NCBI GenBank assembly: GCA_048485235.1
Contig: DBFWCI010000004.1
Coordinates: 3,267-67,266, forward strand
Origin: Collinsella sp.
GTDB taxonomy: Bacteria; Actinomycetota; Coriobacteriia; Coriobacteriales; Coriobacteriaceae
DNA length: 64,000 nt
Direction: 5' to 3'
In this document: positions 32,938 through 51,952 of the stretch, in pieces
How positions within the stretch are numbered: position 1 is the first letter of the stretch
How the letters are laid out: each line of letters starts with the position of its first letter
Notes under the pieces: generated by a model
What the model was told of the DNA's origin: nothing
The model's input: only the letters and a program-made list of their open reading frames with translations
The model's database searches: none
Program-made: the position numbers and the translations under genes

Positions 32938-34284
32938 TTACTGCTCGGGTTCTTCGACTTTATCGATGGTCCAGGCGGCTCCGAGGCCGCCGGTGGTGCT
33001 GCGGCGGATACGCACGGTAACCTCGCGGCGCTCGCCGGCCTGCGTGTAGCGCAGGGGGAAGCTTGCGCGGTTTCGCGCGGCCTCGATGGTACCGCGCTCG
33101 CGGGCGATCCAGTAGTACTCGCCGACGATGCCGAGCGTGTCGGCGCCGTAGGGGAGATAGGTCGACAACTGGTGCAGAAGCGGGCCGGGGCAGAAGACCT
33201 CGGTTGCGAAATCGACGGGGAAGTCCTCGGGGATGGCGGGCGCTACGGGTGCGGGGACCGGTACTGCAGCGGGAGCCGAAGCCGGTGCTGGTGCGGGAAT
33301 TTGGTCGCAAGCAGCGGTGGGCACGGATTCGATGACGGGTGCGGGCTCCAGCGTCGCTTCCGGCTTGATCGTGGAATCTGCGGGCTCCAGCGTCGTCTTC
33401 GGCTTGGTTGTGGAATCTGCGGGCTTCACGGTGACGGGCGCGTCTGCAGCTGCAGTTTCAACCTCAACCTGCGTCGCGCTCTCATTCTCGACGCTCGACT
33501 TTGCCTCGATGGGCGTGGATGCCATGGTGGTGATGCCGGCGTTGGCATTCTCGGGGTCATAGACGACCGTGAGCGAGATGGCGGGCTGCGGCGTCTCGGG
33601 CTCCGGTGTCGACTCGGTGGCGTCTTGATCGTCGGGCTCGTCGGGTTGATCGTCCTCGGGCTCGTCGCCAAAGACATCGCTGTTTTGGAACGCAGACGTC
33701 TCGGGTTGGTTGGCGGCTTCTTCGGTTGTCGACTTGGGAGCTTCGTTGAGCTCCGCAGTGGCTTCCTGCTCGGATATGACTTCGGGATCGGTCGTAGCGG
33801 TGATTTCGGTTTCGGCTTCTGCCGTTACCTCAATAGCGACTTCGATCTCGGGCTCGGGCTCGGATTCTGGCACGGCTTCAACCATGGCTTCAGGCTCGGG
33901 ACGCTTAACGTGCTTGGGGCGCACGGCCTTGAGGTCCTTCTCGCCGCGTTTTTTCTTTTTGTAGGACTGCTTGGCTCCCTTGGCAGCCTTGGGCTTGTCC
34001 TCGCCCTTGGCAAGGGCGGCATCCCAGGCCTCGTTGGCGATGACCGTGGCATACAGGCGACCGCCCTTAAAGACGGTCAGCTTAATGCAGTCGTCGAGCT
34101 CCTCGAGCAGCTCGCGCGTGGACTCGAAGCCCAGGTCATAAGCGGCCATGTCACCAGCGGCGAGTGCCTCCTCGACCTGCGTCATAAACGTTTGCTTGCC
34201 GCATCCAATCGCATCGCGCAGCAGGCGATACAGATAGATGTGGTTGCCCAGCGAAAGCGTGGGCGTAACTATTGTCTTGCTCAT
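32938..34284 (-). CDS. Hypothetical protein with a long acidic Pro/Glu/Thr-rich repetitive linker
   Basis: Start moved to ATG 34284 (GAGGAGA SD). Globular N-terminal domain of about 110 aa, low-complexity centre, globular C-terminal domain of about 110 aa. No family assigned with confidence. Confidence 0.6.
   Translation of the reverse strand: MSKTIVTPTLSLGNHIYLYRLLRDAIGCGKQTFMTQVEEALAAGDMAAYDLGFESTRELLEELDDCIKLTVFKGGRLYATVIANEAWDAALAKGEDKPKAAKGAKQSYKKKKRGEKDLKAVRPKHVKRPEPEAMVEAVPESEPEPEIEVAIEVTAEAETEITATTDPEVISEQEATAELNEAPKSTTEEAANQPETSAFQNSDVFGDEPEDDQPDEPDDQDATESTPEPETPQPAISLTVVYDPENANAGITTMASTPIEAKSSVENESATQVEVETAAADAPVTVKPADSTTKPKTTLEPADSTIKPEATLEPAPVIESVPTAACDQIPAPAPASAPAAVPVPAPVAPAIPEDFPVDFATEVFCPGPLLHQLSTYLPYGADTLGIVGEYYWIARERGTIEAARNRASFPLRYTQAGERREVTVRIRRSTTGGLGAAWTIDKVEEPEQ
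33341..33427 (-). repeat. 2 x 42-bp in-frame tandem repeat inside the hypothetical gene
   Basis: GCGGGCTCCAGCGTCG(C/T)CTTC(C)GGCTTG(A/G)T(C/T)GTGGAATCT occurs twice, encoding ADSTxKPxxTLEP units. Confidence 0.7.
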
Positions 34285-34419
34285 GGCAAATCTCCTCTTT
34301 ACACACCAAAGCATCTTACCATCGCGCGGGGCTTGCCATCTCGTCGCCCAAGGCAAACGGGCGCGAACCGCTATCGATTCGCGCCCGTTGTACAGGTTGC
34401 CTATCTGGGGATGCAGCGC

Positions 34420-35370
34420 CTAGTTGTCCGATGTCGTGCCTTGGCTTGAACTGTCAGATGCCGTGCCCGATGTGGTGCCACTCGAATTGCTGTTGTTGCT
34501 GTCTGCTGTGCCCGTTCCCGACGTGGTGTCGCTCGTCTGGCCTCCCGTGTTCGGCTGCGAACCGTCAGTCGTTTGGCTTGAGTCGGTCGTGCCGGATTGC
34601 GCGCCGCTGTTGTTCACAGAAGAATCGGCGCCCTGCGATTGGTTTTGGGTATTCGAGGACGAATCGGTAGAGGTGGAACTGTCTTGCGTGCCGTCCGTCT
34701 GTGCCTGCTGGTCTTGCGACTGGGTGTTGCCATTTGCATCGCTTTCCGTCGTGCGCGACGAAAGGATTGGCTCGGGGCGCTCGCCCAGACCCTCACCGGC
34801 GGTGGTGATAAGGATGGCGCCGGCGCAGGCGATGACCGCGACGATGGCGATGGCGATCGAGAAGATGATGACCTTCTTTTGCGTCTGGCTGCGCTCTGCC
34901 GCCGCCTTGGCGCGCAGGCTGTCGGGGGCGACGCGCGCCGTGGTCGCGCGCCCTTCAATCTGGCGCATCTCCTGGGTAGTCGCGGCGCCGCCTAAGTGCT
35001 CCTCGGCATTTAATTCAACGGGTTCATAGGCGCCGGCGGGGTAGTCGACGGTGGCGTGCGTACCTTTGAGGGCTTCGGCGCTGGCAGAGATAAAGTGGCG
35101 GTAGACCTGCGAGGACACAACGGTGATGACCGAGCTCACAGCGGCACCGATCACCGATCCGGCGATACCGATCTTGGAGGCAAGCGCGACGCTCGTAGCG
35201 GCAGCTGCGGCGCCGGCGATGATCTGGGGAATGGAAATGTCGTCAAACAGGCCCTTTTTGGGCGCGATGGCCATGGTCTGGCCGATGGAATGGTTTTCGT
35301 GAACGCCGTTGTTGAGCGATGCCGGCGTCATGACACGTGTGCGCGGCGCGTCGGTGTACTTGGTTGTCAT
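34420..35370 (-). CDS. Membrane protein with a Ser/Thr/Gln-rich C-terminal tail
   Basis: Start moved to ATG 35370 (GGGAGGA SD). Two hydrophobic segments, then a low-complexity DSS/TSG-rich tail. Confidence 0.6.
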   Translation of the reverse strand: MTTKYTDAPRTRVMTPASLNNGVHENHSIGQTMAIAPKKGLFDDISIPQIIAGAAAAATSVALASKIGIAGSVIGAAVSSVITVVSSQVYRHFISASAEALKGTHATVDYPAGAYEPVELNAEEHLGGAATTQEMRQIEGRATTARVAPDSLRAKAAAERSQTQKKVIIFSIAIAIVAVIACAGAILITTAGEGLGERPEPILSSRTTESDANGNTQSQDQQAQTDGTQDSSTSTDSSSNTQNQSQGADSSVNNSGAQSGTTDSSQTTDGSQPNTGGQTSDTTSGTGTADSNNSNSSGTTSGTASDSSSQGTTSDN

Positions 35371-35544
35371 ACGGGGTCCTCCCGGTGTAAATCTGCTTCG
35401 TTTCGTGTAGCCATCAGGGTACCCACCAGATGTGAATCGTACGTGACATTTAACAGATACCATCAACTCATCAAGGGGGCTTGCTGTCTTTGGTGCAATA
35501 GCTTGATGCTAAACTGGATTAACGATTGCGAGGTGGTTTACGTG

Positions 35545-35763
35545 ATGTACCCGTATATGACATTCGAAGACGGTACCGAGGTCGTTCATTCTGACCTGAT
35601 AACAGATGGGGATATCGAAAAGGTTATCGTGCATTTTGAACGACCGACGGTAGAGGGCTTCGACTCCGCTCGCTGTGAGTTGCCTTCCTGTTCGTGGACT
35701 GACTGGGAAGGGCATTTTACTCAGAGTGAAAAACGAGCTTTCGAAGAGTGTTTGAGCAAATAA
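35545..35763 (+). CDS. Small hypothetical protein (72 aa) at the left edge of the AT-rich island
   Basis: Only the last 72 codons of ORF 35056-35763 lie outside the opposite-strand gene. ATG 35545 follows a GAGGTGG SD. MYPYMTFEDGTEVVHSDL.. resembles small accessory proteins from Firmicutes mobile elements (vague recollection). Confidence 0.5.
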   Translation: MYPYMTFEDGTEVVHSDLITDGDIEKVIVHFERPTVEGFDSARCELPSCSWTDWEGHFTQSEKRAFEECLSK

Positions 35764-35863
35764 TTTAGATTAGTTCGAGTTTAGTTCGAATAAAGAAGCC
35801 GAATACGATGACCTAAAGCGTATGCATTTTTAGTATTAGATGCGTATGAAATGGAGGATGTGA

Positions 35864-36145
35864 ATGGATGAGCTAATAGACTTTAAAAAACGATTTCTCA
35901 AGAATGGCGAGCTGGTTTCAATTCCAAAAAAGGAAAGCTATAAAAGAATCATGCTGCTATGGGCCGTCTCTTTCTTTGAATTAAATACAAGTTATACGGA
36001 GCTTCAGGTTAATCGTGTGCTGTCACAGCTCTATCCTGATTATGCCGTGTTGAGGCGGTACTTGGTTGATTATGGATTCCTATTAAGGGATGAGCGAGGC
36101 CTGAAATACGAGGTTAATCCTGATGTTCACGGTATTGAGAGCTAG
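35864..36145 (+). CDS. DUF2087 domain protein (stand-alone, 93 aa)
   Basis: ..IPKKESYKRIMLLWAVSFFE..YTELQVNRVLSQLYPDYAVLRRYLVDYGFLLRD matches my recollection of the DUF2087 pattern, which is usually fused to HTH regulators. Confidence 0.7.
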   Translation: MDELIDFKKRFLKNGELVSIPKKESYKRIMLLWAVSFFELNTSYTELQVNRVLSQLYPDYAVLRRYLVDYGFLLRDERGLKYEVNPDVHGIES

Positions 36146-37307
36146 CCGTCCGGTTCGGGTCCTATATATTGCTAGAGGGATAAGCGAAATAGGCAATTGG
36201 TGTGCGAATATTGCTTTGCCAATGCTGATTTACGAGGTAACTCACGATGTTTCTGCAACTGCTTTGATGGTCTGCTGCAGATTTGCCCCCTCTCTGTTTT
36301 CAGTTGCGCTCGCGCAGCTGCCTCAGAAGATGGGTATCGGGACACTGCAGGCCATGAGATTGGCAGACTTAATTCGCGCGGGATTATTCGTTTGCTATAT
36401 TTTTGTTGATAGTAAATGGAGTATGTTTGCTATTACGTGCGCGGTATCGCTTTGCCGAACGGTTGAAATGCCCTGCTTTTACTCGTTGTTAAGAGCCAAT
36501 ACGAATAGTATCAATCGCGACGTAATTAATAATTCGTTTGGGTTTCTGCAGAATTTGATGATGGTTCTGGGGCCAGTTGCCGGCGGTTTTGTTGTCGCTC
36601 AATTTGGGGCGGAGGCTGTTCTTGCATTAGACGCGCTTTCTTTTGCCGCGTCGTTCTGGTTGCTGCGAGATGTTCCGTCGGTTATCGAGGTTAATGATAA
36701 AGAGGGGATAAGCAAAAATGAAAAAAACAGGACTGCATTTAGTGATCTTAGCGCGAAGCACTTGGCAATTGGTTTCCTATTAATCGATATTTCTAGTGGC
36801 GTGGCATTCGGCTCTCTGAATTCTCTTTTGCCAGCTATAGCGCAATTGCAATTTGACTCGTCATCGATACAATACGGATTCCTTCAGAGTAGTCTTACAA
36901 TCGGACTGTTGTTCGGAAATACAATATATGGTCGTTTAATCAGTGGTTCCGATTGCGTTAAATCATATTGTTTTGTGACGTATCTTGCGCTCGGTGCGTA
37001 TCTGGCGTTTGGCTATCGCTATGCGTCTGGGATATCGTTTATTTTCCTTTTTATTGTCGGTGCCGGAAACGCCATTCAAGATGTGCTTCTCATAACATCG
37101 CTGCAGGATTTGGCGAGAGACGGATCTGAATCGATAAGCCTGTTTTCAATTAGGGAGTCTTTGCAATCGGTTGCTGTTGTTATTTCAACACTCCTTGTTT
37201 CGCTGTTCACGAGCATCGCGATGTTCTCAATTCTCGTTACAGGACTTGGTGTATTTTCAATTATGATGGTAGTTGTGTTTCAATTGAATTATTTGCGAAA
37301 GATGTGA
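36123..37307 (+). CDS. MFS transporter (efflux type)
   Basis: 394 aa, about 12 hydrophobic segments. The N-terminus ..LYIARGISEIGNWCANIALPMLIY resembles EntS/macrolide-efflux-like MFS proteins. AT-rich codon usage. Confidence 0.85.
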   Translation: MFTVLRASRPVRVLYIARGISEIGNWCANIALPMLIYEVTHDVSATALMVCCRFAPSLFSVALAQLPQKMGIGTLQAMRLADLIRAGLFVCYIFVDSKWSMFAITCAVSLCRTVEMPCFYSLLRANTNSINRDVINNSFGFLQNLMMVLGPVAGGFVVAQFGAEAVLALDALSFAASFWLLRDVPSVIEVNDKEGISKNEKNRTAFSDLSAKHLAIGFLLIDISSGVAFGSLNSLLPAIAQLQFDSSSIQYGFLQSSLTIGLLFGNTIYGRLISGSDCVKSYCFVTYLALGAYLAFGYRYASGISFIFLFIVGAGNAIQDVLLITSLQDLARDGSESISLFSIRESLQSVAVVISTLLVSLFTSIAMFSILVTGLGVFSIMMVVVFQLNYLRKM

Positions 37308-37314
37308 CGTTGAT

Positions 37315-39637
37315 ATGCCTAAAACGCTTTTAGTATTTCCCCCAGGATGGAGTCCAGTGGGGCCGTATCTTGCCTTGCCTGTTTTTGAAGTCATATCTTC
37401 AAGAGGTTGAACAATACAAAGTTGACATTGTTGACTTAAACGTGGAATTTTACGATGACCTCCTATCTTTTAGACATGTCGAAGAGTGCTGTAAAAGGTA
37501 TCGGGAATCAAAGGATTCGTTTAGTTCGAATGTTCAATTAACAATCGAGTTGATACAAAAGTCAGCACTTAATGTTGACGAAGCAAAAGATATTTTCAGA
37601 TCAAAGAGATACTTTAATCTAAAAGAAAGACAATATGCTGAAAACATTTTTAGAAATGCACTCTATATCATAAATCACGTCTCATATGGAGTTAAATACA
37701 CGTTCAACTCCATAGATCTGCCCTATGATTATTATTCGACACCAGAAATAATGAAATCGCTTGCGGATACCTTGCATAATCCGTTTATTTCCTTCTATGA
37801 AACTGCCTTTCTTAAGCGTATTCAGAGGGAAAAAATCGAGTTTATTGGGATTTCGGTGAGCGGCTGTTTCCAATTGATTTCCGCAGTTACGTTAGCGAAA
37901 CTGATTAAAGAAGAATGTCCATCTGTTAAACACGTCTCATTGGGCGGCAATTACATTACTCGTTTAGCAGATGACTGCATGAAAGAATGGCATCCCTTTT
38001 TTGAATACATTGATTCGATAATGATGTATGACGGCGAAGAGCCGCTTGCACGTCTTCTTGAGGCTCTTGACTCTGGTGATGACAATCTCGACTGTGTTCC
38101 AAACCTTTGCCATGCTAAAGGTGGAAAGATATATAAAAACCATCGGATTGAGCAAACATTTATCAACGATACAGTTCCCGATTTCGATGGCTTCGCCCTT
38201 TCTAAATACTTCATGCCTGAGTTAATATTGCCGGTTTATTCCTCTAGGCAGTGTTTTAATCATTGCGCCTTCTGCACCATTCCCGGTGCTACTGGTGGTT
38301 GTTACCGAAAGATGCCCATATCGAGAGTATTTGAAATAATGTGTCGGTTAAATGAAAAATACGGCACGAGAGTTTTCTCTTTTGTGGATGAAACATTCGA
38401 AGGCAAAAGAATGGAGCAACTCGCGGATGAAATAAACGCATCGGGAAAAACGTTTTTCTGGCATGGAGAAACGAGGTTCTCTCCAACCCTAAGTACAGAC
38501 GTTTTCAACAAGATATACCAAAGTGGATGTAGGCAGATTCAGTTTGGCCTCGAGTCATACAACCAAAGAGTTCTTGATCTAATGAAGAAGAACACGAGAG
38601 TTGATTGGATTGATCGCAATATCCATGATTGTCTCAATGCGGGTATTCCTGTTCATCTATTCTTTATGATTGGCTTTCCGACCGAAACTAAAGAAGAGGC
38701 TCTGAACACCTTAGCTTATACAGAGAATGTTTTGAATTATTCAAAACAGGTATGTGGTGTTCCATATTCCACGAGAGGATTTACGAATTTTGGTCTCGTT
38801 ATGGGGTCGGATGTTTGGAATCATCCCGATAAGTATGGTGTCTCTGTAATGCCGAAGTCCCAATATGAGGATTTGCGCCTCGAAGTGGATTATGTTTCAG
38901 GCACTGGTTTAACTTTAAATGAAGCAAAATCCTTATCTGATGAGCATCATATTGATTTTTATATGCAAGAGGTCATAAACGGTAGCGACACAATTGATTT
39001 GCCCCAGCGGCTTCATATTTCAGAGGTGACCTGGATCCTAGATTCTATTCACGCTGTCAGGTATAAGGGACATTTGACCAAAGTAAAGCGACGGCTAACT
39101 AGTCTAAATCCAGCTGATCGAATCTGGCTGGATTCCAAGACCTCTGTCGTGCTCGTTGAGCCATTTGCCTACTTCTATAATTCTGAATACCATCATGTCT
39201 ATGCTGTTTCCCAGTTGGTATACCTTAAGTTGGCCCGTTTATTGGAGGCTGATTGTAGCATTTCTCTTATCCTTGATCAGGGCGATCTCGAGCTGACAAG
39301 GGCGATAGAAGAACTGTTGCATTATGGATTGCTGAATACAAATATCGATGCCGATTATGTAATGCACGATAATGGTTTTCAATTGGTTAAAAGTTCGTTT
39401 GTGAAAGAAGTCGGACGCTCAAAAGAGGGGTTAAGAGTACTGCTGAGTTGTGCCACCCATAGAATGTGTGCGGTTAATGATTTTTCGTTCGCTTTGCTTT
39501 CGTTGTTTGAAAAGCCGATTACTAAGAACGAGGTGCGCGACATTTTGAAAAAAGAGGGACTATCGGCAAACGAGGAGCAATTAAACAAGTTGGTTGATAA
39601 TTGCATGAAAGCAGATATACTACAATTGATTAGATAG
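37315..39637 (+). CDS. Cobalamin (B12)-binding-domain radical SAM enzyme with two C-terminal PqqD/RRE-like domains; reading frame interrupted by a 1-nt shift at T5 run 37382-37386
   Basis: The ORF-track ORF 37370-39637 (TTG start) holds the CX3CX2C motif (SSRQCFNHCAFCTIP) after a Rossmann-type segment (IGISVSGCFQ..VSLGGNY). ATG 37315 in the -1 frame encodes MPKTLLVFPPGWSPVGPYLALPV, the expected first strand of the B12 domain. Removing one T joins the two frames. Confidence 0.85.
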
Positions 39638-39650
39638 AGGAGGTTTCTGC

Positions 39651-39761
39651 ATGGACGTTATTAACAAAGATCTCTTGGAGCAACTGAAAGAGTTTCAGGA
39701 AGAGGGCGTCGTGGTAGAAGTGTTCGACTTTGAGGACTACATGGATAAATTCTGCCATTAG
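39651..39761 (+). CDS. Unannotated 36-aa acidic peptide, candidate RiPP precursor
   Basis: Read manually: MDVINKDLLEQLKEFQEEGVVVEVFDFEDYMDKFCH. GAGGAGG SD 7 nt upstream, 14 nt after the rSAM stop, and a terminator follows. Confidence 0.6.
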   Translation: MDVINKDLLEQLKEFQEEGVVVEVFDFEDYMDKFCH

Positions 39762-39785
39762 TTTCGGAATTTACTCGCCTCGCTT

Positions 39786-39820
39786 AAAGGAGAAGTCGAT
39801 TATCGATTTCTCCTTTTTTA
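39786..39820 (+). terminator. Rho-independent terminator closing the island operon
   Basis: AAAGGAGAAGTCGAT-T-ATCGATTTCTCC followed by TTTTTTA. Confidence 0.8.
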
Positions 39821-39949
39821 ATTAAAGATTTTTTTGAAATACATGCTCTTAGCACAGGTTGGCCTCTCAGTAAACTGGGAGGTTGCTTTGGCTAGTTAGA
39901 GGTATGTGAACGTTCGTTAGACTGAATCTCAGGGTAGAAGGGGCCTCCA

Positions 39950-41950
39950 GTGTCCAGATCAACAAGGCAATGCTGCGTTTCGGCTAATAAGAACGATGGC
40001 TTTTTGCGTGTGGCGGCGGCGTCGCCGCAGATTCGCGTTGCCGATGTCGAGGGCAATGCCGAGGTTGCGTTGGCGGCTGTTCGCGAGGCTGCCGAGCGCG
40101 GCGTTCGTGCTCTGGTGCTGCCCGAGCTTAACTTGTGCGGCTATACCGCGGCCGATCTGTTCCATAACCGCACATTACTGCATGCCTGCGAGGCTGCTTT
40201 GGTGCATATCCTCGATGAGACTCGTGAGCTGCCGATTGTCTTTACCATCGGTCTTCCCGTTGCAGTTGCCGAGAATATCTACAACTGCGCCGCCGTGTGC
40301 TGCGCGGGTGAGCTTTTGGGCCTCACGGCCAAGAAGTATCTGCCCAACTATGGCGAGTTCTACGAGCGCCGCTGGTTTGCTCCGGCGCCCACAGATCCCG
40401 TGTGGGTTGAATTTGCCGGTCAGGGTCCGGTTCCGCTGGGTTCGGGGCTTGTCTACCGCTGCTGTGATGAGGGCGCCGAGGACCTGGTGCTGGGCGTTGA
40501 GGTCTGCGAGGACCTGTGGGTGCCGGCGCCCCCTTCGACCGAGATGGCGCTTGCCGGTGCGACGGTGATCCTCAACCCGTCGGCCTCGGACGAGATTATC
40601 GGTAAGGCAGACTATCGCCGCAGCCTCATCTCCAATCAGAGTGCGCGCCTGTACTGTGCCTATGCCTATGCGGACGCGAGCGAGGGCGAGTCCACGACCG
40701 ATATGGTCTTTGCGGGCGAGAACCTCGTCTACGAAAACGGCTCTAAGCTGGCGGCGACGAAGCTCCTTACCTGCGATATGGCGGTTGCCGATGTTGACCT
40801 CGACCGTCTGGTTGCCGAGCGCCGTCGCTCGACGACGTGGACGCGCGCGGACGATGCGCCGGAGGCCACAACCGTTGAATTTTCGTTTGAGGGCGTGCTG
40901 GCAGACGAGCCTGTCCTGCGCGATGCACTCGACATTTACCGTGTCTTCCCCCGCGCGCCCTTTGTGCCGGCTGACCATGGCGACCTGGCCGAGCGTTGCG
41001 AGACGATCCTCAATCTGCAGACTGCGGGCCTCAAGACCCGCCTTGCCCATACGGGTACCAAGGCTGCGGTCATCGGCCTTTCGGGTGGCTTGGACTCCAC
41101 GCTGGCGCTGCTTGTGACCGTGCGTGCCTTCGATGCTCTGGGGCTTCCGCGCACGGGTATCACGGCGGTCTCCATGCCCGGCTTTGGCACGACGCATCGC
41201 ACCAAGTCGAATGCCGAGTCGCTCGCTCGCGACCTTGGCGTGAGCTTCCGTGAGGTTTCGATCCACGCGGCTGTGGAACAGCACTTCAAGGACATTGAGC
41301 ACGATTCGGCCGTGCAGGACGTGACCTACGAGAACAGCCAGGCCCGCGAGCGTACGCAGATTCTGATGGACCTGGCCAACCAGGCTGGTGGTTTTGTCAT
41401 TGGCACGGGCGACCTGTCGGAGCTGGCGCTCGGCTGGGCTACCTATAACGGCGACCACATGAGTATGTATGCCGTCAATGCGAGCGTGCCCAAGACGCTT
41501 GTGCGCCATCTGGTGCGCTATGCCGCCGATGTCTTTGGCGGGCGCATTGCCGAGGTCTTGCTCGACATCCTCGATACGCCGGTGTCCCCTGAGCTTCTGC
41601 CGCCCACGGGCGACGGCGAGATTGCGCAGAAGACTGAGGATTTGGTGGGCCCGTACGAGTTGCACGACTACTTCCTCTACTACCTGCTGCGTTTTGGCTT
41701 TGAGCCGGGCAAGATCTACCGCATGGCGCTCAAGAGCTTCGAGGGCGTCTACGACGCCAAGACCGTCCACACGTGGCTACGTACGTTCTACCGTCGCTTC
41801 TTTGCCCAGCAGTTTAAGCGCAGCTGCCTGCCCGATGGCCCCAAGGTGGGCTCGGTGACGCTCAGCCCGCGCGGCGATTGGCGTATGCCGAGTGACGCTA
41901 GCTCGCGTCTGTGGCTTTCGCAGATCGACGCGCTCAATCCAGTTGACTAA
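39950..41950 (+). CDS. nadE: Glutamine-dependent NAD+ synthetase
   Basis: 666 aa. N-terminal nitrilase/CN-hydrolase domain (VLPELNLCGY), C-terminal NAD synthetase domain (VIGLSGGLDSTLAL). Confidence 0.92.
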   Translation: MSRSTRQCCVSANKNDGFLRVAAASPQIRVADVEGNAEVALAAVREAAERGVRALVLPELNLCGYTAADLFHNRTLLHACEAALVHILDETRELPIVFTIGLPVAVAENIYNCAAVCCAGELLGLTAKKYLPNYGEFYERRWFAPAPTDPVWVEFAGQGPVPLGSGLVYRCCDEGAEDLVLGVEVCEDLWVPAPPSTEMALAGATVILNPSASDEIIGKADYRRSLISNQSARLYCAYAYADASEGESTTDMVFAGENLVYENGSKLAATKLLTCDMAVADVDLDRLVAERRRSTTWTRADDAPEATTVEFSFEGVLADEPVLRDALDIYRVFPRAPFVPADHGDLAERCETILNLQTAGLKTRLAHTGTKAAVIGLSGGLDSTLALLVTVRAFDALGLPRTGITAVSMPGFGTTHRTKSNAESLARDLGVSFREVSIHAAVEQHFKDIEHDSAVQDVTYENSQARERTQILMDLANQAGGFVIGTGDLSELALGWATYNGDHMSMYAVNASVPKTLVRHLVRYAADVFGGRIAEVLLDILDTPVSPELLPPTGDGEIAQKTEDLVGPYELHDYFLYYLLRFGFEPGKIYRMALKSFEGVYDAKTVHTWLRTFYRRFFAQQFKRSCLPDGPKVGSVTLSPRGDWRMPSDASSRLWLSQIDALNPVD

Positions 41951-51639: not shown

Positions 51640-51805
51640 TGTCCGGATAGCGCTCCCGCATTGCTGCAGACAGTCCTGTGGGTGTTTCCCACAGGCCCAC
51701 CAGGTTGTTCGTGCCCGTAAAACCCAGTTCGGCGGGTTTCGCCTCCCCACGGGGTCAAAGCCTGCCGGCTCGCCCGCGGCTCTTCGTGCCCGCGCCTCTA
51801 TCAAG
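51640..51805 (-). promoter_or_regulatory. Lysine riboswitch (L-box) in the leader of the lysA-dapA/dapB/dapH operon
   Basis: The minus-strand read contains GATAGAGGCGC..., GGGGAGGCGAAACCCGCCGAAC, CCTGGTGGG, GGACTGTC and closing GGGAGCGCTATC, in the order and spacing of L-box conserved cores (compare B. subtilis lysC leader AGAGGUGC / GGGGAGCGUCGCCGAAG / GCUGG / GGCUGUCA). Confidence 0.85.
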
Positions 51806-51952
51806 TGGTAAAGACCCTATCACGTTGCACTTTACCAAACAAGAGTATTCGTATATAACGTTTAAAAAATGCAGGGATATGCTGGAAACATGTGCGCCAC
51901 AATCCTGTATCACAATAAGTTGCAACAGATGTGCCTCACGAAGGGATCCTCT

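What the first reader, a model, noticed from the sequence alone, without database searches (positions are those of the whole stretch)
35470..39830. AT-rich 4.4-kb island with an uncharacterised RiPP-like cassette: small protein, DUF2087, MFS exporter, B12-type radical SAM with fused RRE-like domains, 36-aa peptide
Seen in the sequence: between the core genes at 34420-35370 (-) and nadE (39950, +), base composition drops abruptly. By eye it is roughly 35-40% G+C against about 60% in the flanks (not computed), and codon choice switches to A/T-ending codons. Five same-strand ORFs are packed with almost no spacing. They are 35545-35763, 35864-36145, 36123-37307 (23-nt overlap), 37315-39637 (starts 8 nt after the MFS stop) and 39651-39761 (14 nt after the rSAM stop, GAGGAGG SD). 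One strong terminator follows at 39786-39820. The large protein has a Rossmann-type cobalamin-binding-like N-domain, the CX3CX2C radical SAM motif (CFNHCAFC), and a C-terminal extension of about 190 aa that looks like two PqqD-type winged-helix (RRE) repeats. Established knowledge: class B (cobalamin) radical SAM enzymes install C-methylations and related modifications on RiPPs (polytheonamide PoyB/C, bottromycin methyltransferases, TsrM). PqqD-like RREs bind leader peptides. MFS or ABC pumps commonly provide export or immunity. Inference: this is a horizontally acquired locus, plausibly of Firmicutes origin, that makes a modified peptide (bacteriocin or signal). I do not recognise the precursor or this domain fusion as any named RiPP class. 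The island has no integrase, transposase, leader peptidase or C39 transporter, so both processing and mobility are unexplained.
Basis: partly seen in the sequence, partly recalled or inferred. Interest (0 to 1): 0.86.

Follow-up and report, generated by a model that had tools for sequence, protein, structure and literature searches.

The report
Collinsella AT-rich radical-SAM peptide cassette
A 4-kb foreign-looking gene block in the gut bacterium Collinsella encodes an uncharacterised system for chemically modifying and exporting a 36-residue peptide; it is nearly identical across the whole genus, but the key enzyme is broken by a one-base insertion in this copy.

Summary
The block is 41% G+C against 59% elsewhere, more than 10 SD below any other 4-kb window.

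The functional unit has four genes, not five: DUF2087, an MFS pump, a class-B-type radical SAM enzyme and a 36-aa peptide (about 35825-39825). The 72-aa ORF behaves like flanking DNA.

The enzyme is split in this window by an extra T (T5 at 37382-37386). All 80 related Collinsella genomes are in frame there.

A confident AlphaFold model matches TsrM, OxsB, TokK and CysS. Its C-terminus forms two tandem RRE domains of the PqqD type.

In all 10 clades examined (Collinsella, Lachnospiraceae, Desulfosporosinus, Lactococcus, Fusobacterium and others), a 33-37-aa ORF follows the enzyme and an MFS gene is nearby. The peptides share an acidic leader and a C-terminal (S/T)-T-(K/Q)-Y-x motif; Collinsella has D-K-F-C-H.

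My best guess is cobalamin-dependent C-methylation at or near the conserved Tyr/Phe, as ApyD does, followed by export. This is inferred, not shown.

The cassette sits at the same site in all 80 genomes and is about 12-fold less diverse than its flanks. Loss-of-function alleles of the enzyme recur. No paper or curated model describes this family.

The parts
35825..39825 (+). AT-rich, low-diversity cassette: DUF2087, MFS, rSAM, peptide and terminator
   Evidence: G+C is 0.414 against 0.591. Mean diversity among 70 Collinsella sequences is 0.0075 over 35800-39990 (mean pairwise 0.0068 over 35825-39825), against 0.09 and 0.08 in the flanks. The edges of the low-diversity block lie at about 35825 and 39825.
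35864..36145 (+). DUF2087 protein (93 aa), a putative modulator of cassette or precursor expression
   Evidence: PF09860 E = 4.6e-20. Intact in 77 of 78 genomes, dN/dS 0.29. DUF2087 is also found in the cassettes of L081, L082, L091 and, fused to an ArsR-type HTH, L083. BtmL of bottromycin is a DUF2087 protein that raises precursor transcript levels (PMC7113386).
36123..37307 (+). MFS transporter (394 aa), the putative exporter
   Evidence: MFS_1 E = 7e-16, MFS_3 E = 6e-12, EntS-like. Intact in 79 of 79 genomes, dN/dS 0.11. An MFS gene lies next to the rSAM in all 10 clades examined.
37315..39637 (+). Class-B-type radical SAM enzyme with fused tandem RRE domains. It is 773 aa when repaired and frameshifted in this window.
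   Evidence: Radical_SAM E = 1e-17. Best NCBIfam hits are rSAM_ocin_1 at 115 bits, PhpK at 107 and ApyD at 85, all far below their cutoffs. AF2 pLDDT is 91.5. Top Foldseek hits are TsrM, OxsB, MgmA, CysS and TokK. dN/dS is 0.05.
37382..37386 (+). T5 run, the site of the frameshift (one extra T)
   Evidence: 78 of 80 related genomes have T4 here and 2 of 80 have ATTTT; both are in frame. This is the only indel in the cassette among 70 aligned sequences. Intact homologues read ...LALPVLKSYLQ.
38252..38275 (+). CX3CX2C motif (CFNHCAFC) for the [4Fe-4S] cluster
   Evidence: Read directly from the sequence. C295 and C302 are invariant and C299 is at least 90% conserved across 42 homologues.
39077..39340 (+). 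First RRE-like domain (several beta strands followed by three helices)
   Evidence: DSSP of the models. The alignment to ThcOx covers both repeats, 201-205 columns, E = 5e-4.
39380..39634 (+). Second RRE domain, of PqqD type
   Evidence: Fold hits to TbiB1 with its leader, the PbtF RRE, TglI, lasso B1 and MccB. The C-terminal profile reaches stand-alone proteins of about 90 aa, and 7 of 10 tested are Pfam PqqD above the cutoff. PqqD hits 4 of 25 homologous C-termini.
39651..39761 (+). 36-aa precursor peptide MDVINKDLLEQLKEFQEEGVVVEVFDFEDYMDKFCH
   Evidence: A GAGGAGG ribosome-binding site lies 7 nt upstream. The ORF is intact in 80 of 80 genomes, and the C-terminal 17 residues are invariant in 79 of 80. 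The last 14 residues are identical in L081 although its rSAM is only 59% identical. Homologous short ORFs follow the rSAM in 10 of 10 clades.
39786..39822 (+). Intrinsic terminator
   Evidence: 14-bp stem, 3-nt loop and T-run. Folding energy is -18.3 kcal/mol, z = -2.4.
35545..35763 (+). 72-aa ORF next to the cassette; probably not part of it
   Evidence: No Pfam, NCBIfam or PHROG hit. pS is 0.13, like the flanks, and dN/dS is 0.08. The C-terminus varies in length: 72, 79 or 86 aa. It is unrelated to the 82-aa ORF at the same position in L081.

Best explanation
This is a four-gene operon for a ribosomally made, post-translationally modified peptide (RiPP). It was acquired horizontally by the Collinsella lineage, plausibly from low-G+C Firmicutes.

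Proposed mechanism:
1. The 36-aa peptide is the substrate. Its acidic leader is a helical LLExLKE segment followed by an amphipathic strand, V-V-V-E-V-F-D.
2. The leader docks on the tandem PqqD-type RRE domains fused to the C-terminus of the radical SAM enzyme. This presents the C-terminal core (...FEDYMDKFCH) to the active site.
3. The enzyme has the architecture of cobalamin-dependent class B radical SAM enzymes. It most likely installs one or more C-methyl groups at unactivated carbons at or next to the conserved aromatic residue. That residue is Tyr in most clades and Phe in Collinsella. ApyD does this for Tyr and the bottromycin methyltransferase for Phe.
4. The MFS pump exports the product.
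5. The small DUF2087 protein tunes expression, by analogy with BtmL.

Shown here: gene content, the predicted fold, co-conservation of the genes, purifying selection and the foreign composition. Inferred: the chemistry, leader binding, export, regulation and the biological role (bacteriocin or signal).

In this window the enzyme gene carries a +1 frameshift. If that is real rather than a homopolymer sequencing error, this strain cannot modify the peptide.

The cassette is about 12-fold less diverse than its flanks across the genus. This suggests it spread recently by recombination under positive selection.
For: Composition.

Domains.

Structure: the AF2 model has pLDDT 91.5 and pTM 0.91. Its best fold matches are TsrM, OxsB, MgmA, CysS and TokK, at E of about 1e-14 to 1e-12. 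The C-terminal model (pLDDT 89.8) matches RiPP RREs only: the tandem RREs of ThcOx, TigE, TbiB1 with its leader, TglHI, PbtF, MibB, CteB and MccB. The C-terminal profile reaches stand-alone PqqD proteins.

Conserved neighbourhood: rSAM, a 33-37-aa ORF and an MFS gene occur together in 10 of 10 clades. DUF2087 is present in 5 of 10.

Precursor alignment: an acidic leader, an amphipathic strand and a C-terminal (S/T)-T-(K/Q)-Y-x motif.

Selection: the core is invariant in 79 of 80 genomes and in about 65 further metagenome contigs with one exception. The core is identical in L081 although its enzyme is only 59% identical. dN/dS is 0.05 for the rSAM and 0.11 for the MFS.

Closest curated models are all methyltransferases: RiPP C-methyltransferase TIGR03975, PhpK and ApyD.

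Precedent: ApyD is an RRE-containing B12-rSAM that beta-methylates the penultimate Tyr of its precursor (PMC11117315). MpcB (with its partner MpcC) plus an MFS pump make clavusporins (PMC10849626). BtmL is a DUF2087 protein (PMC7113386).

Sweep: pairwise diversity is 0.0068 in the cassette against 0.08-0.09 in the flanks. The maximum is 0.011 against 0.14. Tajima's D is -1.8 against 0 to +0.5.
Against: - No product has been observed.
- The window protein itself has no Pfam PqqD hit. Its B12-binding hit is below the cutoff at 17 bits against 32.
- Fold relatives include AprD4 and MiaB, which share the N-terminal domain; AprD4, as I recall, does not use cobalamin, so cobalamin dependence is not proven.
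- All curated methyltransferase models score far below their cutoffs.
- Some class B enzymes do not methylate. Reported reactions include ring contraction, cyclisation, and C-S and biaryl bond formation (PMC12931638, PMC12257519).
- No leader peptidase is encoded, so maturation is unexplained.
- The enzyme is frameshifted here, and 7 of 80 genomes carry nonsense alleles. The function is therefore dispensable in some hosts.
- The diversity contrast was measured on one representative genome per species, not on a population sample.
Confidence: 0.62

Rival explanations
1. The RiPP logic is the same, but the enzyme does not methylate. Instead it forms a crosslink or another rearrangement in the core, for example a bond between an aromatic residue and Cys, His or Lys. 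Cobalamin would then play a non-methyl-donor role or be absent.
For: Class B-type enzymes also catalyse biaryl crosslinking in biphenomycin-like peptides (PMC12257519), ring contraction and C-S bond formation (PMC12931638). The Collinsella core is rich in F, Y, C and H, and 5 of 10 precursors have Cys directly after the Tyr/Phe. AprD4, a diol dehydratase, is among the fold hits.
Against: The residue after the aromatic one varies (C, S, T, A or V), so a Cys-dependent crosslink cannot be general to the family. The three best curated-model hits are methyltransferases. The closest functional precedent with an RRE fusion, ApyD, is a Tyr beta-methyltransferase (PMC11117315).
Confidence: 0.22
2. The peptide is a sacrificial scaffold for a small molecule such as a cofactor or siderophore-like compound, as PqqA is for PQQ and MftA for mycofactocin. 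The conserved C-terminal Tyr would be excised after modification.
For: The family has a conserved Tyr near the C-terminus and an rSAM with a PqqD-type RRE, as PqqE/PqqD and MftC/MftB have (established knowledge of those pathways). The MFS is EntS-like.
Against: None of the 10 loci encodes the follow-up enzymes those pathways need, such as a peptidase, oxidase or dehydrogenase. The enzyme is of the B12 type rather than the SPASM type. A pump is always present, and regulators of the Rgg or two-component type are present in two loci. These point to a secreted peptide.
Confidence: 0.06
3. In this strain the cassette is a decaying relic. The rSAM is a pseudogene and nothing is made.
For: The T5 frameshift removes the invariant N-terminal FPPGW..GPY segment from the long ORF. 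Independent nonsense alleles occur at 6 sites in 7 of 80 genomes. MFS-rSAM deletion fusions exist in metagenomes (P0002-P0007).
Against: A one-base homopolymer difference seen in only one of 81 sequences is also the typical signature of a sequencing or assembly error. No other lesion is present. The other three genes are intact.
Confidence: 0.4
4. The short ORF is not a substrate. The enzyme acts on a non-peptide metabolite that the MFS transports.
For: Many class B rSAMs act on small molecules, including PhpK, HpnR, TokK and CysS.
Against: A short ORF with a shared motif is conserved at the same position in 10 of 10 clades. The enzyme carries tandem RRE domains, which are peptide-binding modules. 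The core peptide is identical between enzymes that are 59% identical.
Confidence: 0.03

Closest known systems
ApyD, the RRE-containing B12-dependent radical SAM of aminopyruvatide biosynthesis (PMC11117315; NCBIfam NF050148)
   Same: A class-B-type rSAM fused to an RRE. It acts on a short precursor and modifies an aromatic residue next to the C-terminus, beta-methylating the penultimate Tyr.
   Different: The match is only 84.8 bits against a cutoff of 750. The window locus has no MNIO, P450 or SAM methyltransferase partners. The RRE here is tandem and C-terminal. The precursor family and host phyla differ.
TIGR03975 rSAM_ocin_1, RiPP maturation radical SAM C-methyltransferases (proteusin PoyB/C type)
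   Same: It is the best-scoring curated model, aligning over residues 72-501. Both have B12-like and rSAM domains.
   Different: The score is 115 bits against a cutoff of 282. The precursors here are 33-37 aa and not of the Nif11/NHLP type, as far as I know. The tandem-RRE C-terminus is extra.
Bottromycin gene cluster (btm): MFS BtmA, DUF2087 BtmL and three class B rSAM methyltransferases (PMC7113386)
   Same: It has the same trio of accessory parts: a DUF2087 protein, an MFS transporter and B12-type rSAMs, acting on a short peptide. One of its methyltransferases beta-methylates Phe (from my own knowledge).
   Different: There are no YcaO, P450, hydrolase or aminopeptidase genes here. BtmL is about 20 kDa with an ArsR-like N-domain, whereas this protein is 93 aa of DUF2087 only.
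Clavusporin mpc cluster: MFS, S9 peptidase, precursor, B12-rSAM MpcB and DUF5825 (PMC10849626)
   Same: A compact operon of a B12-rSAM, an MFS pump and a short precursor, with leader-dependent C-methylation.
   Different: There is no S9 peptidase or DUF5825 here. Instead a fused RRE probably takes the role proposed for MpcC. The core is acidic and aromatic rather than hydrophobic.
Streptide-type rSAM RiPP operons of streptococci, regulated by quorum sensing (PMC9389541)
   Same: A minimal three-gene layout of precursor, rSAM and transporter. The Lactococcus lactis homologue sits directly downstream of an Rgg regulator.
   Different: Those enzymes are SPASM-type cross-linkers, not B12-type. The Collinsella locus has no Rgg.

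Membership tests
Radical SAM superfamily | CX3CX2C motif and the Radical_SAM core domain | tested here: met
   CFNHCAFC lies at 38252-38275. PF04055 scores E = 1e-17, 65 bits, against a cutoff of 29.5. C295 and C302 are invariant and C299 is at least 90% conserved in 42 homologues.
Class B (cobalamin-dependent) radical SAM enzymes | N-terminal Rossmann-type cobalamin-binding domain, recognised by sequence | tested here: inconclusive
   PF02310 scores 17.2 bits, E = 0.0046, below its cutoff of 32.1. 7 of 15 relatives hit it weakly. Some homologues carry a precomputed PF02310 hit.
Class B (cobalamin-dependent) radical SAM enzymes | Overall fold of a B12-binding domain followed by a partial TIM barrel | tested here: met
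   The AF2 model (pLDDT 91.5) has TsrM, OxsB, MgmA, CysS and TokK as its best PDB matches, at E = 2.5e-14 to 1e-12. AprD4 and MiaB also match; AprD4, as I recall, does not use cobalamin.
Class B (cobalamin-dependent) radical SAM enzymes | Binds and requires cobalamin | not testable with these tools
   This needs reconstitution or UV-vis/EPR of the purified protein.
RRE-dependent RiPP biosynthetic gene cluster | PqqD-like RRE domain (three-stranded sheet plus three helices) | tested here: met
   The C-terminal model (pLDDT 89.8) shows two such units. Fold hits are RiPP RREs. The profile reaches stand-alone PqqD proteins, 7 of 10 tested. The window protein itself has no direct Pfam PqqD hit.
RRE-dependent RiPP biosynthetic gene cluster | A short precursor gene next to the modifying enzyme and co-conserved with it | tested here: met
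   This holds in 10 of 10 clades, with a shared leader and C-terminal motif.
RRE-dependent RiPP biosynthetic gene cluster | The peptide is modified in a leader-dependent way | not testable with these tools
   This needs co-expression and MS.
ApyD equivalog (NF050148) | Score at or above the curated cutoff of 750 bits | tested here: not met
   84.8 bits.
TIGR03975 rSAM_ocin_1 | Score at or above the curated cutoff of 281.85 bits | tested here: not met
   115.3 bits.
Bottromycin-type cluster | YcaO cyclodehydratases and the other btm enzymes | tested here: not met
   Only DUF2087, MFS and rSAM are present. No other ORF in 35400-39990 has such domains.
Clavusporin (mpc)-type cluster | S9 peptidase and a DUF5825 partner | tested here: not met
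   Both are absent from the window locus and from all 10 related loci.
Mobile genomic island | Integrase or transposase, flanking direct repeats, insertion at a tRNA | tested here: not met
   There is no such gene in or beside the block, no tRNA in the window and no flanking repeat longer than chance would give. Relatives L091 and L083 do lie next to integrases.

The most novel reading that the evidence does not exclude
This is the Collinsella member of a so-far undescribed RiPP class. The class would be defined by a B12-type radical SAM enzyme with a fused tandem RRE and by precursors ending in (S/T)-T-(K/Q)-Y-x. It occurs in gut and oral Firmicutes, Fusobacterium and Coriobacteriia. Its product would give a strong enough advantage in the human gut that a single allele swept by recombination through the whole Collinsella species complex. 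Recurrent loss-of-function 'non-producer' alleles would have arisen afterwards.
Probability: 0.4. Interest if true: 0.8.

Novelty: new variant of a known kind. Interest (0 to 1): 0.62.

Why it matters
Collinsella is one of the most prevalent Actinomycetota of the human gut. The 90%-identity cluster of this enzyme holds 12,784 sequences from public assemblies.

A conserved, selectively maintained peptide-modification cassette in every genome examined is a concrete candidate for a bacteriocin or signal that shapes colonisation. It is small enough, at four genes, to test directly.

The family offers a compact system for studying how a class B radical SAM enzyme uses fused tandem RRE domains. The Lactococcus lactis homologue, next to an Rgg regulator, gives a genetically tractable entry point.

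The 12-fold diversity deficit relative to the flanks, together with recurrent nonsense alleles, is a natural experiment on producer/non-producer dynamics.

Tried and rejected
- The genome-contig scan returned only Collinsella among the 80 loci kept. The metagenome scan, re-centred on a distant clade, still returned mostly Collinsella contigs. Neighbourhood diversity therefore rests on 10 clades fetched one at a time.
- A profile of the C-terminal domain against PDB sequences found nothing. Only the fold comparison worked.
- The first attempt to align the C-terminal fragment against full-length homologues misaligned and was replaced by sliced sequences.
- PLSDB plasmids gave no hit at E <= 1e-40.
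- PHROGs gave nothing for the 72-aa ORF, the DUF2087 protein or the left flanking gene.
- Rfam found no RNA element in the cassette.
- Literature searches on Collinsella, Lactococcus/Rgg, DUF2087, B12-rSAM with RRE, and the literal precursor strings found no description of this family. The 'bioinformatic atlas' of rSAM RiPPs is not in the library, so I could not check whether it lists this family.
- I tested whether the Streptomyces hits were clavusporin MpcB-type. The context of P0090 lacks the S9 peptidase and DUF5825, so I rejected that.
- I rejected programmed frameshifting at T5. The run is short, the site is T4 in all other genomes, and no slippery heptamer fits.

Full report
**1. The observation**

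The composition shift is real and large. In 400-nt windows, G+C falls from 0.59-0.65 to 0.34-0.48 between about 35400 and 39999. The block 35825-39825 is 0.414 G+C and the rest of the window 0.591. The 206 other 4-kb windows have mean 0.588, sd 0.016 and minimum 0.556. Third-position G+C is 0.41-0.45 in the DUF2087, MFS and rSAM genes (0.62 in the short peptide ORF), against 0.74-0.76 in the neighbouring genes.

The large gene is split in this window. 37315-37410 ends in a stop after 31 codons, and the 755-codon ORF 37370-39637 is in another frame. Removing one T from the run T5 at 37382-37386 joins them into 773 codons.

The GAGGAGG site before the 36-codon ORF and the CFNHCAFC motif can be read directly. 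The terminator is a 14-bp stem with a T-run, at -18.3 kcal/mol and z = -2.4.

**2. Host and distribution**

A scan of one genome per bacterial species found 441 relatives. The 80 best are all Collinsella or unclassified Coriobacteriaceae. Each aligns with window 34000-41000 at 95.4-98.5% identity. The block therefore sits between the same two genes throughout the genus: a low-complexity protein gene on the left and nadE on the right. NAD_synthase and CN_hydrolase domains confirm nadE.

At the frameshift site, 78 of 80 genomes have T4 and 2 of 80 have ATTTT. Both are in frame. The extra T is the only indel in the block among 70 aligned sequences. It is either a private mutation or a homopolymer error, and I cannot tell which.

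**3. What belongs to the cassette**

Nucleotide diversity among 70 sequences is 0.0075 over 35800-39990 (mean pairwise 0.0068 over 35825-39825), against 0.092 on the left and 0.082 on the right. The edges lie at about 35825 and 39825, that is, from 40 nt before the DUF2087 start to the terminator.

Synonymous divergence from the window, by gene:

| Gene | pS |
|---|---|
| DUF2087, MFS, rSAM, peptide | 0.017-0.028 |
| 72-aa ORF | 0.13 |
| Left flanking gene | 0.16 |
| nadE | 0.22 |

The 72-aa ORF has no family hit. It is unrelated to the small ORF at the equivalent place in the nearest non-Collinsella cassette. I therefore treat the unit as four genes, with the 72-aa ORF as a neighbour.

**4. 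The enzyme**

By sequence:
- Radical_SAM scores E = 1e-17. B12-binding is weak, at 17 bits and below its cutoff.
- The best curated models are RiPP C-methyltransferase TIGR03975 (115 bits), P-methyltransferase PhpK (107) and ApyD (85). All are far below their cutoffs, so none can claim the protein as a member.

By structure:
- A 42-sequence alignment gave a confident model, with pLDDT 91.5 and pTM 0.91.
- Its best PDB matches are the cobalamin-type radical SAM enzymes TsrM, OxsB, MgmA, CysS and TokK. AprD4 and MiaB share the domain layout; AprD4, as I recall, does not use cobalamin.
- The class-B architecture is thus supported. Cobalamin use is inferred.

**5. The C-terminal extension**

The model shows two successive units, each a small sheet followed by three helices. 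The separately modelled 208-residue tail (pLDDT 89.8) matches RiPP recognition elements almost exclusively. The matches are ThcOx, whose alignment of 201-205 columns spans both repeats, and TigE, TbiB1 bound to its leader, TglHI, the PbtF RRE, MibB, CteB, lasso B1 and MccB.

Pfam PqqD does not hit the window protein. It does hit 4 of 25 homologous tails. A profile of the tail was searched against 1.84 billion representative proteins:
- It finds only 19 proteins at E <= 1e-10; the full-length ones (eleven) are 628-818 aa enzymes of this family and the other eight are fragments of 86-290 aa.
- It then finds stand-alone proteins of about 90 aa that match the second repeat.
- Seven of ten of these tested are PqqD above Pfam's cutoff.

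The tandem-RRE tail is a narrow, distinctive family.

**6. The peptide**

I fetched the neighbourhoods of enzymes from ten clades, at 33-59% identity to the window enzyme.

| Locus | Source |
|---|---|
| window | Collinsella |
| L081 | an unidentified high-G+C host |
| L082 | Hungatella |
| L088 | Dorea |
| L083 | Desulfosporosinus |
| L085 | Lactococcus lactis |
| L087 | Fusobacterium nucleatum |
| L090 | a Paraclostridium plasmid |
| L089 | metagenome contig |
| L091 | metagenome contig |

Every one has a 33-37-codon ORF directly after the enzyme gene and an MFS gene beside it. Five also have DUF2087; in L083 it is fused to an ArsR-type HTH.

The peptides align. Each has an acidic, helix-prone N-terminus (for example LLEQLKE), an amphipathic strand (VVVEVFD, IEFEEID, IKFDVMA) and a C-terminal motif. 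The motif variants are NSTKYC, NTKYC, TTKYA, STKYTSPE, TTQYCLK, STQYV, TTQYSP and MKYSP, with DKFCH in Collinsella.

Evidence that the core is constrained:
- Within Collinsella, the last 17 residues are invariant in 79 of 80 genomes. All common polymorphism is in the leader.
- About 65 further metagenome contigs agree, with one exception.
- L081 has an enzyme only 59% identical, yet the last 14 residues of its peptide are identical.

**7. Mechanism**

The parts fit the usual RiPP logic. The leader is captured by an RRE, probably as an added strand. The core is modified by the fused enzyme, and the product is exported by the MFS.

For the chemistry the best precedent is ApyD. It is an RRE-containing B12-dependent radical SAM enzyme that beta-methylates the penultimate Tyr of its precursor (PMC11117315). 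Iterative beta-C-methylation by MpcB (with its partner MpcC), with an MFS exporter, gives clavusporins (PMC10849626). The bottromycin cluster combines class B methyltransferases, an MFS and the DUF2087 protein BtmL, which raises precursor transcript levels (PMC7113386).

I therefore favour C-methylation at or next to the conserved Tyr/Phe. Non-methylating chemistry is a real alternative, because class B enzymes also make crosslinks and rearrangements (PMC12931638, PMC12257519). Because the residue after the aromatic one varies among C, S, T, A and V, a Cys-dependent crosslink cannot be general to the family.

No leader peptidase is encoded in any of the simple loci, so maturation is unexplained. 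A housekeeping protease may do it, or there may be no cleavage at all.

An Rgg regulator lies beside the L. lactis operon and a two-component system beside the Dorea one. These fit a secreted signal or bacteriocin.

**8. Evolution**

The composition and the taxonomy of relatives fit acquisition from low-G+C Firmicutes. This is not a strain-specific island.

Pairwise divergence within the cassette never exceeds 0.011, while the flanks reach 0.14. Isolates alone give the same picture: 0.0072 against 0.099 and 0.079. Rare variants are in excess. Tajima's D is -1.8, against +0.45 and +0.01 for the flanks.

The simplest reading is that one allele spread recently through the species complex by homologous recombination at the flanks. 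Distances in the left and right flanks barely correlate (rho = 0.10), which shows that recombination is frequent here.

Two caveats apply. The sample is one genome per named species, and many of the genomes are metagenome-assembled.

Since the spread, the genes have been under purifying selection: dN/dS is 0.05 for the enzyme and 0.11 for the MFS. Even so, 7 of 80 genomes carry nonsense mutations at six different codons of the enzyme. Metagenomes contain MFS-enzyme deletion fusions, and this window has the frameshift. Loss of production therefore recurs.

No mobility gene, tRNA or flanking repeat marks the block. Two distant relatives lie next to integrases.

**9. Novelty**

RiPP clusters built around RRE-fused class B radical SAM enzymes are known. 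This family is not covered by any NCBIfam or Pfam model for the enzyme or the peptide. It has no close solved structure. It does not appear in the searchable literature, including literal searches for the precursor strings. One relevant survey is not in the library, so prior listing in a bioinformatic catalogue cannot be excluded.

I rate it a new variant of a known kind. It is of moderate to high interest because of its prevalence in a core human gut genus, its small testable size and its unusual population-genetic signature.

Noticed in passing
window 51640-51808 (-): A lysine riboswitch aptamer, at 76.5 bits against a gathering score of 30. It is the only Rfam match in the window.
   Followed up: no
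window 32938-34356 (-) and 34420-35370 (-): Two low-complexity proteins rich in S, T, P and E, with no family hit. They are the most variable stretch among Collinsella genomes, with diversity up to 0.16 and several indels. They may be surface proteins.
   Followed up: partly
window 35545-35763 (+): A 72-aa ORF under purifying selection (dN/dS 0.08). Its stop codon is lost in about half of the genomes, giving variants of 79 or 86 aa. It has no known family.
   Followed up: partly
L009, L012, L025, L048, L056, L077, L080 (rSAM gene); proteins P0002-P0007: Independent nonsense mutations occur at six codons of the enzyme: C59, K60, Q81, W225, K348 and G384. In-frame deletions also fuse the MFS to the enzyme, giving 1053-aa proteins.
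   Followed up: yes
L089 3909-12238: A related enzyme and its precursor (MSMEQLRSLVVEESIEFEEIDVKEPNSTKYTSPE) sit next to a LanB-like dehydratase and an MNIO (PF05114). This looks like a larger hybrid RiPP cluster.
   Followed up: no
L091 149-5469; L083 12169-13050: In L091 a tyrosine recombinase gene lies directly upstream of a cassette with the same gene order as Collinsella. In L083 another lies downstream of the Desulfosporosinus cassette. These hint at how the cassette moves.
   Followed up: no
L081 2500-6500: The nearest non-Collinsella cassette (enzyme 59% identical) is likewise an AT-rich block, at 0.38-0.51 G+C. Its host is unidentified, with flanks of 0.59-0.68 G+C and different neighbouring genes.
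   Followed up: partly
window 35779-35791 and 37519-37531: An exact 13-nt direct repeat, GTTTAGTTCGAAT. One copy lies in the spacer before the DUF2087 gene and one inside the enzyme gene. This may be chance, since about 0.2 such matches are expected in 5 kb.
   Followed up: no
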